Of a stretch of DNA of 64,000 bases, positions 58,159 through 61,612 are shown piece by piece. Under the pieces are notes generated by a model that ran no database searches, was not told where the DNA came from, and worked only from the letters and a program-made list of their open reading frames with translations. The position numbers and the translations under genes were made by a program. Origin of the DNA: Escherichia phage ZCEC14. Location: sequence record OP168898.1; one strand, written 5' to 3'. Each line of letters begins with the position of its first letter. The first letter of the stretch is position 1.

Positions 58159-58539
58159 ATGTATAAAGTGTACGCGGATTATCAGGCTAATCCATCTGAA
58201 AAGCCAGGTTGTCAAATTGGATGGGCTCATGATACTTTACTTGAAGCAGTAGATGCTGCTCAAAAATTGGGATATAAATATGTAGAGATTGTTCAACCGT
58301 CAGGAAAAGTTATTACTCTTGAAGAGTTCAATAACATTAAACCGAACTTTTTACTTTTTGCAGGTGATAATTATTATCCTCGTGGTGGATATGCTGATTT
58401 AATCGCGAAAGCCGCCACTGAAGATGAACTCCGTGACATTATCAAAGAAAATGAAAACAAACCAGATTATGGTTCCAATCGCTTTGATTGGTGGCAAATT
58501 GTAAATGCCAATACGCATACTATTGTTGATGAAGGTTGA
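58159..58539 (+). CDS. Hypothetical protein (126 aa from ATG 58159)
   Basis: ORF with RBS aaaggtgaatagaATG; track start 58120 is less likely. Confidence 0.55.
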   Translation: MYKVYADYQANPSEKPGCQIGWAHDTLLEAVDAAQKLGYKYVEIVQPSGKVITLEEFNNIKPNFLLFAGDNYYPRGGYADLIAKAATEDELRDIIKENENKPDYGSNRFDWWQIVNANTHTIVDEG

Positions 58540-58829
58540 TAATGATTCTTTATGCTAAAGTATCGTCTATTGAAAATGGATATAAATATGATCAAGACGC
58601 GGCTAAAGCCTTGATTGATGATTATGGCATTTTAACATGTTTTGAAGTTGAAAAAGTTTATATTGACCGTTCATCTTCTCAAGTTAAATTAGTGAAAGAA
58701 GACCGTAAATTTAACACAGTTAACTTTGATTTCTTTATTGAAACGGAAAAAGGTCCTCTTGAATATGATATTTTCAAGAATCCTTTGGGTCTTGAATGTA
58801 TCGTAAATACGTATCATCATAAATGGTAA
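58536..58829 (+). CDS. Hypothetical protein (97 aa)
   Basis: ORF with ATGA overlap. Confidence 0.5.
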   Translation: MIMILYAKVSSIENGYKYDQDAAKALIDDYGILTCFEVEKVYIDRSSSQVKLVKEDRKFNTVNFDFFIETEKGPLEYDIFKNPLGLECIVNTYHHKW

Positions 58830-58926
58830 ATATGCTTTAAGAATTATTTGTTATTATTAACTCATACCGCACTGATTAATACCCTCTATCATCAAGGGTT
58901 CTTGTTTGAGAGCCTTTGTTAATAAT

Positions 58927-58999
58927 TGGGAATTAGCCAAGTTGGTAAGGCACTGGATTTTGATTCCAGGATGCAAAGGTTCGAGTCCTTTATTCCCAG
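58927..58999 (+). tRNA. tRNA-Gln (anticodon UUG)
   Basis: Cloverleaf: acceptor tgggaat/attccca, anticodon loop ttttgat, T-arm ggttcgagtcc. Confidence 0.85.
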
Positions 59000-59000
59000 C

Positions 59001-59087
59001 GCGAGAATGGTCAAATTGGTAAAGGCACAGCACTTAAAATGCTGCGGAATGATTTCCTTGTGGGTTCGAGTCCCACTTCTCGCACCA
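59001..59087 (+). tRNA. tRNA-Leu (anticodon UAA), class II long variable arm, CCA encoded
   Basis: Acceptor gcgagaa/ttctcgc, anticodon stem cagca/tgctg with loop cttaaaa. Confidence 0.85.
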
Positions 59088-59092
59088 AATTT

Positions 59093-59166
<74 letters not shown>

Positions 59167-59176
59167 ATTTAATTTA

Positions 59177-59250
59177 CTCCGTGTAGCTCAGTTTGGTAGA
59201 GCGCCTGATTTGGGATCAGGAGGTCCAAGGTTCAAATCCTTGTATGGAGA
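59177..59250 (+). tRNA. tRNA-Pro (anticodon UGG)
   Basis: Anticodon stem cctga/tcagg, loop tttggga; T-arm ggttcaaatcc. Confidence 0.8.
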
Positions 59251-59252
59251 CT

Positions 59253-59342
59253 GGAGGCGTGGCAGAGTGGTTTAATGCACCGGTCTTGAAAACCGGCAGT
59301 CGCTCCGGCGACTCATAGGTTCAAATCCTATCGCCTCCGCCA
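59253..59342 (+). tRNA. tRNA-Ser (anticodon UGA), long variable arm
   Basis: Acceptor ggaggcg/cgcctcc, anticodon stem ccggt/accgg, loop cttgaaa. Confidence 0.85.
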
Positions 59343-59347
59343 GTTTT

Positions 59348-59423
59348 GCTGATTTAGCTCAGTAGGTAGAGCAACTCACTTGTAATGAGAAGGTCGGCGG
59401 TTCGATTCCGTCAATCAGCACCA
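59348..59423 (+). tRNA. tRNA-Thr (anticodon UGU)
   Basis: Acceptor gctgatt/aatcagc, anticodon loop cttgtaa. Confidence 0.85.
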
Positions 59424-59424
59424 A

Positions 59425-59499
59425 GGCCCTGTAGCTGGAAGGTTCAAGCAAGCGACTCATAATCGCCAGATGGTGGTTCAATTCCACCCAGGGCCACCA
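59425..59499 (+). tRNA. tRNA with CAU anticodon (Ile2-type if lysidine-modified, otherwise Met)
   Basis: Acceptor ggccctg/cagggcc, anticodon loop ctcataa. Confidence 0.75.
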
Positions 59500-59511
59500 A
59501 ATTATGAATTA

Positions 59512-59598
59512 GGGGAGTTATCCCGTAGAGGTAGCGGTGTGGACTGTAAATCCATTGTCATTGCGACTCGGGTGGTTCGACTCCATCACTCCCCACCA
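59512..59598 (+). tRNA. tRNA-Tyr (anticodon GUA), long variable arm
   Basis: Acceptor ggggagt/actcccc, anticodon stem tgga/tcca, loop ctgtaaa. Confidence 0.75.
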
Positions 59599-59602
59599 AT
59601 TT

Positions 59603-59677
59603 GGATGTGTAGCTCAATGGCAGAGCGATCGCCTGTTAAGCGATTGGTTATAGGTTCGAATCCTATCACGTCCGCCA
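59603..59677 (+). tRNA. tRNA-Asn (anticodon GUU)
   Basis: Acceptor ggatgtg/cacgtcc (G-U pair), anticodon loop ctgttaa, T-arm ggttcgaatcc. Confidence 0.75.
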
Positions 59678-59681
59678 AATC

Positions 59682-59757
59682 CGAGGCATAGCTCAGAAGG
59701 AAGAGCAAGGACCTTCTAAGTCCTGGGTCGTAGGTTCGATCCCTACTGCCTCGACCA
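59682..59757 (+). tRNA. tRNA-Arg (anticodon UCU)
   Basis: Acceptor cgaggca/tgcctcg, anticodon stem ggacc/gtcc, loop ttctaag. Confidence 0.8.
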
Positions 59758-59775
59758 ATTATAAGTGAGGAAAAT

Positions 59776-60126
59776 ATGAAAGGTAATGTTTATTTAGTAG
59801 TTCATGATTTAACATTCTATTTTAATCATAATGATACTGTTATTTCTGAACGTGTAATTAATTTACTTTATCAGCATGCAGATTATGTTTATGTTGAAAA
59901 CGAATTTGGACATTGGCAATTTATTAAAAATCGTTCATTTGGTTTAGATGGTTACGAATATTTTGAACGTAAAGACCTTTTAGATAAAATTCCGTTATCT
60001 ACACAATATCAAAATCATAAGTCTTTATATAAATGTCGGCTAATTCGAAATGCTGAATCTGCGTATGAAGCAATTGATTTATGGCGTAAACGCCGTGAAC
60101 AGATTGATGCTTTAAAAGAATATTAA
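59776..60126 (+). CDS. Hypothetical protein (116 aa)
   Basis: ORF with RBS gaggaaaatATG directly after tRNA cluster. Confidence 0.55.
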   Translation: MKGNVYLVVHDLTFYFNHNDTVISERVINLLYQHADYVYVENEFGHWQFIKNRSFGLDGYEYFERKDLLDKIPLSTQYQNHKSLYKCRLIRNAESAYEAIDLWRKRREQIDALKEY

Positions 60127-60465
60127 GAAACCGGGTCGCTACCGGTAAGTCGTCGGACTGATGTTCCCTGAGTAAGGACTAGCATTAACAAATCTTTGCG
60201 ATTGGTTAATGCCCCCTTACATCACAGCAGAAACGGCGCACCGAATTATCGATTCGAGGAAATATCTTTGCCGTAAGCCGAGTAGCGTTTTTGACGGAAC
60301 GTTCGGATATGGTCGAGATATGGCCTTTTAAAAATATTGAGTAGCGTCAACTGCTTAATAACCGGGTTCGAATCCCGGCGTTTCGTACAAACACTTGCCT
60401 TAGCAGGTGGAACCCCGACAAGGTTGCCGCAAGGCTTAGCCCCGACCGAAAGGTTGGGGCTTTTT
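60127..60465 (+). ncRNA. Structured non-coding region, candidate stable small RNA(s) analogous to T4 rnaC/rnaD, with tRNA-like T-arm and terminal hairpin+T-run
   Basis: GC-rich, stop-rich; accgggttcgaatcccggc T-arm-like element (60361-60380); terminator agccccgacc-gaaa-ggttggggc-ttttt at 60436-60465. Confidence 0.4.
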
Positions 60466-60555
60466 AGTTTGAATCATATAGAGAATGCTGTTACGGATAA
60501 TAACAAAGTAATAAATAATTAATAACCAACCGATAAATTATTTCAAGGATTTTAA

Positions 60556-61119
60556 ATGAAAACCTATGCCGAATTTTTAACCGAAGCAGCAAAATTACCA
60601 TCTGAAGCAGATCTTACTAAAGTATTCTTCCAATTGGACCCCAAAGACCGTGGTGATTTTCTTAAGTGGAAAGCTAAAGCTATTGAAATGTATAACATTG
60701 ATAATAGTTCTTTTACGATGAGTCAAGAAAATAAATTCAATAAAGCATTTTTCAAAATTTCTAAGAAATTGGCATCTGGCACTCAGGTTCCTAAATCTGC
60801 CTTAGCTACTCCTGAACGTGCACCTGTTAAAATTTCTAAGAATATGTTTGACACTAAAAAATATGTCAATGCTTTGAATAAAGCTCTTGATGCATTGGAT
60901 GATGCAAAGAAGGCAGCTCGTGATCTTCAAGACGTGTACACCGATTTTGATCGTAAAACTAAAGGTTCTATTTCAAATAGCGAACGCAATAGTGTAAGTG
61001 TTTATTCCGATAGCCTTGATGTTCTTGGCGATGCGTATACTGAAATTAAAAATCGTATTAACACTGCATCTAAGCTAAAAGCTGCTGCCGAAGCTATAAT
61101 AACTAAACTAGGTAAATAA
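60556..61119 (+). CDS. Internal-protein-like protein (187 aa) with capsid-targeting-like N-terminus MKTYAEFLTEA
   Basis: N-terminus close to T4 IP capsid-targeting sequence; size similar to IPIII (about 194 aa as recalled). Confidence 0.65.
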   Translation: MKTYAEFLTEAAKLPSEADLTKVFFQLDPKDRGDFLKWKAKAIEMYNIDNSSFTMSQENKFNKAFFKISKKLASGTQVPKSALATPERAPVKISKNMFDTKKYVNALNKALDALDDAKKAARDLQDVYTDFDRKTKGSISNSERNSVSVYSDSLDVLGDAYTEIKNRINTASKLKAAAEAIITKLGK

Positions 61120-61275
61120 TTTTAAATCCCTATCTAAATGATAGGGCTTTTTGGTATCTAGGCCTTTCTGGACCTCTCTAGGCATCATTTAGTTTCTACC
61201 CTTTATAATATATTATCCTATCTTTTAATTGCCCCTCCCTGCTCTAGAATTCCCTAAAATTTTTTTCACAAAACG

Positions 61276-61308
61276 GTTTACATCCCTGTTCTTCCATGGT
61301 ACTATACA
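61276..61308 (+). promoter_or_regulatory. Early promoter cassette (GTTTAC; ccatggtactatac)
   Basis: Shares leader caactatcaactactga and ggagaataaaATG with other cassettes. Confidence 0.5.
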
Positions 61309-61348
61309 ACTATCAACTACTGATACAGAAAACAACTTGGAGAATAAA

Positions 61349-61612
61349 ATGGATAATTACGGCGAACTGTTCAACTTCTTTATGAAATGCGTTTCAGAAG
61401 ATTTCGGTCGTACAGTGAATGATATTAAAGTTATCGGTCCTGACCATCCGATGTTTGAAACTTACGCAGTAATGGGTAATGAAGACGGTCAGTGGTATAC
61501 TGTAAAGGTTGTGATTAACATGTTCACTGCTGAAGGTTATGTTAAACTGTCTTCTAAAGTTTACCATGATAACGATGAAATCGCAGAAGAATATTTCAAT
61601 AATATGAAATAA
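61349..61612 (+). CDS. Hypothetical protein (87 aa from ATG 61349; track ORF start 61229 runs through the promoter)
   Basis: RBS ggagaataaaATG at 61349. Confidence 0.55.
   Translation: MDNYGELFNFFMKCVSEDFGRTVNDIKVIGPDHPMFETYAVMGNEDGQWYTVKVVINMFTAEGYVKLSSKVYHDNDEIAEEYFNNMK

What the first reader, a model, noticed from the sequence alone, without database searches (positions are those of the whole stretch)
60127..60465. Structured non-coding region with a tRNA-like T-arm and strong terminator
About 340 bp after ORF 59776..60126 is GC-rich relative to its surroundings, lacks a convincing ORF (the 61-aa track ORF has no RBS and crosses hairpins), contains a canonical T-arm-like element ccgggttcgaatcccgg, and ends in a strong intrinsic terminator (60436-60465). 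In T4 two stable RNAs of unknown function (rnaC/rnaD) lie beside the tRNA genes; this may be their counterpart or a degenerate tRNA.
Basis: partly seen in the sequence, partly recalled or inferred. Interest (0 to 1): 0.45.

Follow-up and report, generated by a model that had tools for sequence, protein, structure and literature searches.

The report
T4 stable RNAs rnaD and rnaC
This stretch holds this phage's copies of two small stable RNAs found in phage T4 in the 1970s (species 2/rnaD and species 1/rnaC) plus their terminator, so it is not new; comparison with related phages shows that rnaC is a tRNA-shaped RNA locked by a loop-loop contact, though its function is still unknown.

Summary

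- **Identity.** Window 60122-60465 is the rnaD-rnaC locus of a T-even phage (Tequatrovirus). rnaC is 98.6% identical to T4, rnaD about 91%, and the trailer and terminator 97.5%. The locus lies after a 10-tRNA array and an inserted 116-aa ORF. No ORF in it is credible.
- **Databases and literature.** Rfam has no family for either RNA. Papers from 2010, 2022 and 2025 call their function unknown.
- **rnaC structure (60249-60387), from 30 distinct homologues in about 10 genera.** It is a four-way cloverleaf:
  - a 7-bp acceptor stem with two conserved U·U mismatches;
  - a 68-70-nt long arm;
  - a 10-bp hairpin;
  - a T arm that is canonical in most lineages.
  The tip of the long arm (UUGACG) and the hairpin loop (CGUCAA) are exact complements. 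They covary in two lineages, which indicates a kissing loop.
- **rnaC context.** In other genera rnaC sits between tRNA genes with tRNA-like spacers of 4-11 nt. It is probably matured like a tRNA, but it has no anticodon loop.
- **rnaD structure (60122-60242).** It is a 5' hairpin plus a long bent hairpin, and it also covaries. A published convergent adaptive SNP in phage BW-1 restores a base pair in its apex.
- **Function.** My best inference, at low confidence, is a tRNA mimic or decoy.

The parts
58927..59757 (+). Array of 10 tRNA genes (Gln, Leu, Gly, Pro, Ser, Thr, Met/Ile-CAU, Tyr, Asn, Arg), upstream in the same transcription unit
   Evidence: ARAGORN; Rfam tRNA hits of 59-74 bits; same order as in phages Aplg8 and BW-1
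59776..60126 (+). 116-aa ORF of unknown function, inserted between tRNA-Arg and rnaD. It is absent from T4, where tRNA-Arg abuts rnaD.
   Evidence: ORF list; phrog_3355 at E = 1.1e-53, no Pfam hit; homologous CDS in RB69, BW-1 and VEc20; T4 layout
60122..60242 (+). rnaD (species 2 RNA) homologue. Ends transferred from the Aplg8 annotation.
   Evidence: Annotation of NC_054902; coordinate mapping; model R2 155.8 bits
60130..60146 (+). rnaD 5' hairpin: 5 bp plus the 7-nt loop GUCGCUA
   Evidence: RNAalifold. All 5 pairs change on both sides in the wider set.
60149..60241 (+). rnaD long bent hairpin. The closing helix is GUCGUCG/CGGCGCAC. Internal helices are 60162-60165/60226-60229 and 60169-60177/60215-60224. 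The apex is variable.
   Evidence: 94-96% of cells paired against 31-51% when partners are slid
60243..60248 (+). 6-nt spacer GAAUUA between rnaD and rnaC (A-rich leader of rnaC)
   Evidence: Alignment
60249..60387 (+). rnaC (species 1 RNA) homologue, 139 nt, with a tRNA-shaped four-way junction
   Evidence: 98.6% identical to T4 rnaC; model R1 151.7 bits; structure counts; the MFE fold equals the comparative fold at 139/139 positions
60250..60256 (+). rnaC acceptor-stem 5' strand CGAUUCG. It pairs with 60379-60385 (CGUUUCG) and includes two conserved U·U mismatches.
   Evidence: A-U to G-C in 20 of 30 sequences. In Yersinia phage TG1 both U·U become U-A and C-G.
60257..60326 (+). rnaC long arm, in the position of a tRNA D arm: 27 bp in five helical segments, with a GUA bulge at 60282-60284
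   Evidence: 14 of 20 lower pairs and 5 of 6 tip pairs change on both sides. Length from G10 to C77 is 68-70 nt in all 30 sequences.
60291..60296 (+). Tip loop UUGACG, one partner of the kissing loop
   Evidence: Exact complement of 60345-60350. Covaries as UUGAUG/CAUCAA and UUGGCG/CGCCAA.
60327..60334 (+). Single-stranded linker UUUAAAAA; three of its A residues are invariant
   Evidence: Alignment A3, invariant columns
60335..60360 (+). rnaC hairpin 2, in the position of an anticodon arm: 10 bp plus the 6-nt loop CGUCAA (60345-60350), the second kissing partner
   Evidence: 9 of 10 pairs change on both sides
60362..60378 (+). rnaC T arm CCGGG-UUCGAAU-CCCGG
   Evidence: 99.3% of cells paired and 2 pairs compensatory. 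The loop is non-canonical (UGCAUGC, UGCAUC) in the Winklervirus-type lineages.
60379..60385 (+). rnaC acceptor-stem 3' strand CGUUUCG, followed by U60386 and A60387
60388..60437 (+). Conserved trailer with small hairpins: CACUUGC/GCAGGUG at 60392-60409, AACC/GGUU at 60411-60425, GCC/GGC at 60426-60435
   Evidence: The first ~40 nt are nearly invariant across Tequatro-, Mosig-, Dhaka- and Gaprivervirus. In JS98 the trailer follows rnaD directly.
60438..60465 (+). Intrinsic terminator: 10-bp stem, GAAA loop, T run
   Evidence: Terminator scan; annotated as a terminator in Aplg8

Best explanation
The interval is the 3' end of the phage's tRNA operon. It encodes rnaD (60122-60242) and rnaC (60249-60387), the species 2 and species 1 stable RNAs of T-even phages, followed by a conserved trailer and the operon terminator (60438-60465).

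Shown:
- rnaC folds as a tRNA-shaped four-way junction. The parts are a 7-bp acceptor stem, a 68-70-nt long arm where a tRNA has its D arm, a 10-bp hairpin where a tRNA has its anticodon arm, and a T arm.
- The 6-nt tip of the long arm base-pairs with the 6-nt loop of the hairpin (a kissing loop).
- rnaD is a 5' hairpin plus a long bent hairpin.

Inferred (probability about 0.7):
- rnaC is excised from the polycistronic transcript by the host tRNA-maturation enzymes. RNase P, recognising the acceptor/T-arm minihelix, would cut at the 5' side, and tRNA 3'-end nucleases would trim the 3' side. That would account for its stability.
- The long arm runs out about 20 bp, turns at the conserved purine bulge, and returns through the tip helix, the kissing helix and hairpin 2 (about 22 bp). 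The result would be a closed, 'paperclip'-like body.

Inferred (probability about 0.3):
- rnaC cannot decode, so it acts in trans by its shape. It would be a tRNA mimic that occupies or decoys a tRNA-binding host or phage factor, for example a tRNA-directed defence nuclease or a maturation enzyme.
- rnaD is a separate structured RNA whose fold affects fitness on particular hosts.
For: - Identity.
- rnaC structure: on an alignment of 30 distinct sequences made without reference to structure, 90.3% of cells are paired, against 39-46% when partners are slid. 33 of 54 pairs change on both sides. The single-sequence MFE fold is the same fold.
- Kissing loop: 100% of cells paired. The changes A-U to G-C (4 sequences, Klebsiella phage lineage) and C-G to U-A (2 sequences, Tegunavirus) are at different positions.
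- Acceptor stem: A-U to G-C, and U·U/U·U to U-A/C-G in TG1.
- Arm length: constant at 68-70 nt although the middle of the arm cannot be aligned between groups.
- tRNA-like processing: in Karam-, Winkler-, Teguna- and Gelderlandvirus and the Klebsiella phages, rnaC is flanked by tRNA genes at 4-11 nt, like any tRNA of the array (with rnaC coordinates). U precedes C2 in 25 of 30 sequences. From my own knowledge, that is the RNase P -1 preference.
- Separate modules: JS98, IME281 and TH44 have rnaD and the trailer but no rnaC. Karamvirus has an rnaD-like RNA about 1.3 kb upstream of rnaC.
- rnaD structure.
- rnaD matters on some hosts: the single convergent SNP in all BW-1 lines evolved on ECOR34 (PMC12685909) is A to G in the RNA sense. 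It restores the C-G pair seen in VEc20 in the apical hairpin and changes the MFE from -25.9 to -31.0 kcal/mol.
- Expression: a Northern blot of RNAC is reported in PMC9697503.
Against: - No experiment or database links either RNA to a partner or phenotype. Reviews and papers from 2010, 2022 and 2025 state that the function is unknown.
- The kissing helix rests on two independent evolutionary events only. Covariation cannot tell an intramolecular contact from dimerisation.
- The 3' end carries no CCA in T4-type sequences (U-ACA).
- The T loop is non-canonical in Winklervirus-type homologues. Recognition by enzymes that read the T loop therefore cannot be universal.
- The annotated 5' end (U1) is one nucleotide upstream of the position a canonical RNase P cut would give.
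- From my own knowledge, T4 deletions that remove the whole tRNA region grow on laboratory strains. Any role is therefore conditional.
Confidence: 0.6

Rival explanations
1. The RNAs have no function in trans. They are structured modules of the tRNA operon that direct the order of processing, protect the 3' end of the polycistronic transcript from exonucleases and terminate it. They accumulate only because they are nuclease-resistant by-products.
For: - They lie at the 3' end of the operon in T4-type phages, just before the terminator.
- rnaD-like RNAs always start immediately after the 3' end of a tRNA, with an A-rich leader.
- The trailer is highly conserved.
- From my own knowledge, phages deleted for the tRNA region are viable.
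Against: - In five other lineages rnaC sits in the middle of the tRNA array, not at its end. A role in 3'-end protection cannot explain that.
- The kissing loop, the constant arm length and the invariant junction nucleotides are more constraint than a spacer would need.
- The BW-1 SNP points to host-dependent selection on the rnaD fold.
Confidence: 0.2
2. rnaC and/or rnaD are base-pairing regulatory sRNAs. They would use a conserved single-stranded segment (for example the UUUAAAAAU linker or the loops) to target host or phage mRNAs.
For: - Recent papers refer to them as small regulatory RNAs.
- Several single-stranded positions are invariant (A83, A84, A86).
- rnaD has the conserved 7-nt loop GUCGCUA.
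Against: - The conserved unpaired segments are very short and A/U-rich.
- The two invariant 6-nt loops of rnaC are explained by pairing with each other.
- No target is known.
- The mature RNAs are cut away from the terminator hairpin and U tail that typical Hfq-dependent sRNAs use (annotated ends).
Confidence: 0.1
3. The kissing contact is intermolecular. rnaC would form homodimers or chains through reciprocal tip-to-loop pairing and act as an RNA scaffold or condensate seed.
For: - The two complementary loops lie on the same molecule, and covariation fits intermolecular pairing equally well.
- Six consecutive pairs give -4.1 to -7.6 kcal/mol as isolated duplexes.
Against: - The arm length is conserved within 2 nt.
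- The return path (about 22 bp) matches the outward path (about 20 bp), which fits ring closure within one molecule (my inference).
- Nothing else requires dimers.
Confidence: 0.07
4. The region is a decayed tRNA gene or encodes a small protein (the 40-aa or 61-aa ORFs).
For: T-arm motif; mechanical ORFs at 60209-60331 and 60337-60522; ARAGORN calls the 3' 96 nt of the KKP_3262 homologue tRNA-Phe.
Against: - Compensatory changes occur throughout, and the RNA is conserved over about 10 genera.
- The acceptor pairing in the ARAGORN model changes from G·U to A·C. Its 5' strand is absent in KMB17-type sequences.
- The ORFs cannot be conserved where a tRNA gene follows rnaC within 4-11 nt.
- The long arm differs completely in sequence, with indels, while keeping its pairing.
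Confidence: 0.02

Closest known systems
Bacteriophage T4 rnaC (species 1 RNA) and rnaD (species 2 RNA)
   Same: - Same position at the end of the tRNA operon, same order (rnaD then rnaC), same terminator.
- 98.6% and about 91% identity.
- Annotated as such in Aplg8, RB27 and others.
   Different: A 116-aa ORF separates tRNA-Arg from rnaD in this window, as in RB69 and BW-1, whereas in T4 the two abut. The apical hairpin of rnaD differs at several positions, with compensation.
Canonical tRNA (Rfam RF00005)
   Same: - rnaC has a 7-bp acceptor stem directly followed by a 5-bp T stem.
- The T loop is UUCGAAU with a G-C closing pair.
- The topology is a four-way junction.
- It sits in tRNA arrays with tRNA-like spacers.
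   Different: - No D arm; a 68-70-nt arm takes its place.
- The 'anticodon' arm is 10 bp with a 6-nt loop that pairs with the long-arm tip, so there is no anticodon.
- The acceptor stem has tandem U·U mismatches.
- No CCA is encoded in T4-type sequences.
- Neither ARAGORN nor the Rfam tRNA model detects it.
tRNA-like domains of tmRNA and of bacterial Y RNAs (YrlA, RF02553)
   Same: These are non-decoding RNAs that carry an acceptor/T-arm mimic and are handled by tRNA enzymes (my own knowledge).
   Different: - No tag ORF and no G3·U70 pair.
- ARAGORN finds no tmRNA.
- The Rfam tmRNA and YrlA models do not hit the interval. Their only weak hits lie on real tRNAs.
- In YrlA the RNA termini lie in the Ro-binding stem, whereas here they form the acceptor stem.
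Engineered 'tRNA scaffold' RNAs (a structured RNA inserted into a tRNA body to make it stable in E. coli; my own knowledge)
   Same: An acceptor/T-arm handle that would recruit tRNA processing and confer stability on an unrelated structured insert.
   Different: This one is natural. The insert replaces the D and anticodon arms and is closed by a kissing loop. Nothing here tests whether stability depends on the handle.

Membership tests
T4 rnaC (species 1 RNA) | Sequence homology to T4 rnaC over its full ~139 nt | tested here: met
   98.6% identity over 139 nt to T4; identical to the annotated rnaC of Aplg8
T4 rnaC (species 1 RNA) | Location in the tRNA gene region, downstream of rnaD, upstream of the operon terminator, same strand as the tRNAs | tested here: met
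T4 rnaC (species 1 RNA) | Accumulates as a discrete stable RNA of about 140 nt during infection | not testable with these tools
   A Northern blot for T4 RNAC is reported in PMC9697503. There are no data for this phage.
T4 rnaD (species 2 RNA) | Sequence homology to T4 rnaD (~119 nt), placed after a tRNA and upstream of rnaC | tested here: met
   91.5% identity over 117 nt to T4; model R2 155.8 bits. Here an ORF lies between tRNA-Arg and rnaD.
tRNA | Cloverleaf with D arm, a 5-bp anticodon stem and a 7-nt anticodon loop; detected by tRNA models | tested here: not met
   No ARAGORN call in 60122-60465. No RF00005 hit there at E up to 10. Hairpin 2 has 10 bp and a 6-nt loop that pairs with the long-arm tip.
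tRNA | 7-bp acceptor stem stacked on a 5-bp T stem with a TΨC-type loop | tested here: met
   The T loop is non-canonical in Winklervirus-type homologues.
tmRNA | tRNA-like domain plus a tag-peptide reading frame and pseudoknots | tested here: not met
   ARAGORN reports no tmRNA. The only Rfam tmRNA_permuted hit (13.6 bits) lies on a tRNA at 59472-59549.
Y RNA-like YrlA (RF02553) | Match to the family model; Ro-binding stem formed by the RNA termini | tested here: not met
   The YrlA hits (25.8 and 18.8 bits, against a gathering score of 69) lie on tRNA genes, and none lies in the interval. The termini of rnaC form the acceptor stem.
Intrinsic (Rho-independent) terminator | G+C-rich hairpin followed by a U run at the end of the transcription unit | tested here: met
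   60438-60461 has 10 pairs (7 G-C) and a 4-nt loop, followed by TTTTT. Conserved in relatives. Termination itself was not measured.

The most novel reading that the evidence does not exclude
rnaC is a new class of tRNA mimic. An acceptor/T-arm handle would carry a closed, 'paperclip'-like body locked by a kissing loop. T-even-type phages would use it as a decoy or inhibitor of a tRNA-directed host factor, such as an anticodon or variable-loop nuclease of an anti-phage system, or of a tRNA-maturation enzyme. rnaD would be a second host-range-modulating RNA, as the convergent base-pair-restoring SNP in phage BW-1 suggests. As far as I could check, neither the kissing loop nor the family-wide distribution is described in the searchable literature or in Rfam.
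Probability: 0.2. Interest if true: 0.7.

Novelty: already known. Interest (0 to 1): 0.3.

Why it matters
- As a genome feature this is ordinary. It is the well-known rnaD/rnaC locus of T-even phages, which many deposited genomes leave unannotated or cover with 'hypothetical protein' calls.
- The function of these two RNAs has been open for about 50 years.
- The comparative model obtained here gives concrete handles for experiments:
  - a tRNA-shaped rnaC with a covarying kissing loop and a constant arm length;
  - rnaC and rnaD as separable modules spread over about 10 genera;
  - a published adaptive SNP that repairs an rnaD helix.
- The two alignments could also seed Rfam families, which would improve phage annotation.

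Tried and rejected
- **Rfam.** A scan of 58500-61500 at E up to 10 gave only noise inside the interval: isrK on the minus strand, anti-hemB and Rev39 at 11-16 bits.
- **ARAGORN-style tRNA reading of rnaC.** This reading places the 5' acceptor strand, ACGGAAC, inside the long arm. I rejected it because the pair changes from G·U to A·C in Karamvirus and the strand is absent in KMB17-type sequences.
- **Other complementarities in rnaC.** The 5' strand is complementary to the T loop (GAUUCGA/UCGAAUC). The rnaC 3' strand is complementary to the rnaD 3' region (GAAACGGCG/CGGCGUUUC). For the first, TG1 changes break the pairing while keeping the acceptor stem. For the second, there is no variation to test.
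- **rnaD-rnaC pairing.** The rnaD loop GUCGCUA is complementary to the repeated GUAGCGU in rnaC. The long-arm copy of that repeat is not conserved in lineages with a divergent long arm, so the idea is unsupported.
- **Wider searches.** Two viral-contig pattern scans, one metagenome scan and one bacterial-genome scan found no new lineages. The two bacterial hits and one metagenome hit are chance matches.
- **Promoter.** There is no T4 late-promoter motif TATAAATA between 58589 and rnaD, so an own promoter is not evident.
- **Literature.** Searches for the classical processing work (p2Sp1, species 1 RNA) found nothing in the held library, and Miller et al. 2003 is not held. Statements about RNase P or RNase E processing of species 1 therefore rest on inference and memory.
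- **Flanking ORFs.** Pfam and PHROGs searches gave only families of unknown function.

Full report
**1. What is in the sequence**

- Window 58927-59757 holds ten tRNA genes on the + strand. A 116-aa ORF follows at 59776-60126.
- The flagged interval has 200-nt GC values of 0.445-0.47, against 0.265-0.38 in the neighbouring ORFs.
- It contains the exact T-arm-like sequence ccggg-ttcgaat-cccgg at 60362-60378.
- It ends in a terminator: a 10-bp stem at 60438-60461 followed by a T run to 60465.
- The + strand folds much better than shuffled sequence (z = -5.14). The - strand folds less well (z = -3.22).
- Only mechanical ORFs of 34-61 aa lie inside.

**2. Identity**

- blastn of 60100-60500 against 50,697 phage records finds 806 records, nearly all T-even relatives of enterobacteria. 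Where the region is annotated, the features are rnaD, rnaC and a terminator.
- In phage Aplg8, rnaD, rnaC and the terminator are annotated in that order. In T4 strain wild, rnaC is annotated at the homologous place.
- The three-way alignment is 94% identical overall. By piece, identity to T4 is 98.6% over 139 nt for rnaC, 91.5% over 117 nt for rnaD, and 97.5% for the trailer plus terminator.
- Transferring the Aplg8 ends gives rnaD = 60122-60242 and rnaC = 60249-60387.
- The oligonucleotide used as an RNAC probe template in PMC9697503 starts with TCGATTCGAGG, which is the same 5' end.
- In T4, tRNA-Arg abuts rnaD. Here, as in RB69, BW-1 and VEc20, a 116-aa ORF (phrog_3355, unknown function) lies between them.
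- Rfam 15 has no family that hits either RNA at E up to 10.
- The literature I could read says the function of both RNAs is unknown: PMC3014915 (2010), PMC9697503 (2022) and PMC12685909 (2025).

**3. Structure of rnaC**

I collected homologues from the phage collection, IMG/VR and metagenomes. This gave 30 distinct sequences. They come from Tequatro-, Mosig-, Gapriver-, Karam-, Winkler-, Teguna-, Moon-, Kanagawa- and Gelderlandvirus and from Klebsiella and Edwardsiella phages.

On the MAFFT alignment, which was made without reference to structure, the model below has 90.3% of cells paired. The figure is 39-46% when the 3' partners are slid by 1-3 columns. 33 of 54 pairs change on both sides. 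The single-sequence MFE fold of the window's rnaC is identical to the model at 139 of 139 positions.

The model, in window coordinates:

- **Acceptor stem**, 60250-60256 with 60379-60385. It is 7 bp with two central U·U mismatches in 28 of 30 sequences. The third pair is A-U in T4-type sequences and G-C elsewhere. In Yersinia phage TG1 the two U·U become U-A and C-G.
- **Long arm**, 60257-60326. It has 27 bp in five segments, and 19 of its 26 pairs are compensatory.
- **Linker**, 8 nt, UUUAAAAA.
- **Hairpin 2**, 60335-60360. It is 10 bp with a 6-nt loop, and 9 of 10 pairs are compensatory.
- **T arm**, 60362-60378.

This is the topology of a tRNA cloverleaf. However, the D arm is replaced by a 68-70-nt arm and there is no anticodon loop.

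The ARAGORN call of a 96-nt 'tRNA-Phe' in the KKP_3262 homologue uses a 5' strand inside the long arm. Covariation contradicts that reading.

**4. The kissing loop**

- The tip of the long arm (UUGACG, 60291-60296) and the loop of hairpin 2 (CGUCAA, 60345-60350) are exact reverse complements.
- They are the same in 24 of the 30 sequences. Where they differ, they change together:
  - UUGAUG with CAUCAA in Tegunavirus (2 sequences);
  - UUGGCG with CGCCAA in the Klebsiella phage lineage (4 sequences).
  These are two different positions and two independent lineages.
- The arm from G10 to C77 is 68-70 nt in all 30 sequences, although its middle cannot be aligned between groups.
- A 3-4-nt purine-rich bulge (GUA, AUAA or AUGA) always precedes the 6-7-bp tip helix (read directly).
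- My inference is that the arm runs out about 20 bp, turns at this bulge, and returns through the tip helix (6 bp), the kissing helix (6 bp) and hairpin 2 (10 bp) to the junction. That would give a closed body. An intermolecular contact (dimer) is not excluded.

**5. Genomic behaviour**

- rnaC and rnaD are separable:
  - Dhakavirus JS98 and IME281 and Gaprivervirus TH44 have rnaD and the trailer but no rnaC.
  - Karam-, Winkler-, Teguna- and Gelderlandvirus and the Klebsiella phages have rnaC inside the tRNA array.
- In those lineages rnaC typically lies between tRNA-Trp and tRNA-Gly, or after tRNA-Met. The spacers to the neighbouring tRNA genes are 4-11 nt, the same as between tRNAs (with rnaC coordinates).
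- This is the main argument that the acceptor/T-arm minihelix makes rnaC a substrate of the tRNA-maturation machinery. Processing itself was not tested here.
- U precedes C2 in 25 of 30 sequences. From my own knowledge, this fits the RNase P preference for U at position -1.
- The annotated 5' end is that U itself, so the exact ends remain open.
- The 3' strand is followed by U-ACA in T4-type sequences, U-UCA in TG1 and U-CCA in the Klebsiella phage type.

**6. rnaD and the trailer**

- rnaD has a 5' hairpin (5 bp, loop GUCGCUA, 60130-60146) and a long bent hairpin (60149-60241). The closing helix and internal loops are invariant and the apex is variable.
- On 17 T4-type and related sequences, 96.5% of cells pair, against 31-51% when slid, and 6 pairs are compensatory.
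- A covariance model finds weaker homologues (22-37 bits) in Klebsiella phages, Moonvirus and Karamvirus. Where tRNA annotation is available (KKP_3262, KaAlpha, kv_tblp8), they start right after a tRNA 3' end.
- On that wider alignment, which was fitted to the model, 16 of 25 pairs are compensatory.
- PMC12685909 reports one convergent SNP (164264, T to C) in all BW-1 lines evolved on E. coli ECOR34 and places it in rnaD.
- Mapped to the RNA strand, this SNP is A to G at L039:1281. It restores the C-G pair of the apical hairpin CACAGU/ACUGUG that the close relative VEc20 has. It lowers the MFE from -25.9 to -31.0 kcal/mol.
- This is indirect evidence that the rnaD fold affects fitness on some hosts.
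- The first ~40 nt of the trailer (60388-60437) are almost invariant across four genera. The trailer follows rnaD directly where rnaC is missing. Its role was not resolved.

**7. Mechanism and rivals**

- Shown: the identity, the two secondary structures, the loop-loop pairing and the modular distribution.
- Inferred at about 0.7: maturation of rnaC by the tRNA-processing enzymes, and the closed fold.
- Inferred at about 0.3: a function in trans as a tRNA mimic or decoy for a tRNA-binding host or phage factor.
- Rivals considered:
  - processing or stability modules with no trans function;
  - base-pairing sRNAs;
  - a dimeric scaffold;
  - a pseudogene or small protein (effectively excluded).
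- No homologue was found outside phages with the pattern used.

**8. Verdict**

The finding is a correct rediscovery of a known but functionally unexplained pair of phage RNAs. Its novelty as a feature is nil. The structural model, and especially the covarying kissing loop, may be new, but I could not check the pre-2000 literature. Interest: 0.3.

Noticed in passing
L026 (Klebsiella phage kv_tblp8) about 752-1047: About 300 nt with no annotated gene lie between the rnaD-like RNA (600-751) and tRNA-Met. Only short mechanical ORFs are present, so this may be another structured RNA.
   Followed up: no
L003 70-180, L024 166-276, L026 600-751, L015 783-892, L034 639-747: Distant rnaD-like RNAs (22-37 bits with model R2) occur in Karamvirus, Moonvirus and Klebsiella phages. 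Where tRNAs are annotated (L003, L024, L026) they start right after a tRNA 3' end, with an A-rich leader. Their apex carries a conserved UCCCUCAUUGAAACC motif that T4-type rnaD lacks.
   Followed up: partly
L001 2389-2419, L039 2072-2107, also L010, L011, L014, L017, L022, L040: The rnaC-operon terminator hairpin recurs about 600 bp downstream in several relatives, so an inserted ORF is bracketed by duplicated terminators. The window has only the one copy, at 60438-60465.
   Followed up: partly
window 59425-59499: The tRNA that ARAGORN calls Met (anticodon CAT) is the positional homologue of the gene that T4 records annotate as tRNA-Ile. It is probably a CAU tRNA read as Ile after modification.
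   Followed up: no
window 59776-60126: A 116-aa ORF (phrog_3355, no Pfam hit) lies between tRNA-Arg and rnaD. It is present in RB69, BW-1 and VEc20 and absent in T4, where segB sits elsewhere in the cluster. This window has no segB in the tRNA region.
   Followed up: partly
window 60230-60238 vs 60376-60384, and 60294-60300 vs 60380-60386: The 3' acceptor strand of rnaC is complementary to a segment of rnaD and to a segment inside its own long arm. Both pairings are better than the pairing with its true, U·U-containing 5' partner. They could compete during folding of the precursor, but no covariation supports either.
   Followed up: partly
window 60411-60425 vs 60440-60459: The trailer repeats the terminator's 5' strand motif (CCCCGAC...AAGGUUG). 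The upstream copy could pair with the terminator's 3' strand instead.
   Followed up: no
window 59243-59497: The Rfam 'Plastid-ycf2', 'sX4', 'YrlA' and 'tRNA-Sec' sub-threshold hits all lie on ordinary tRNA genes and are false positives.
   Followed up: yes
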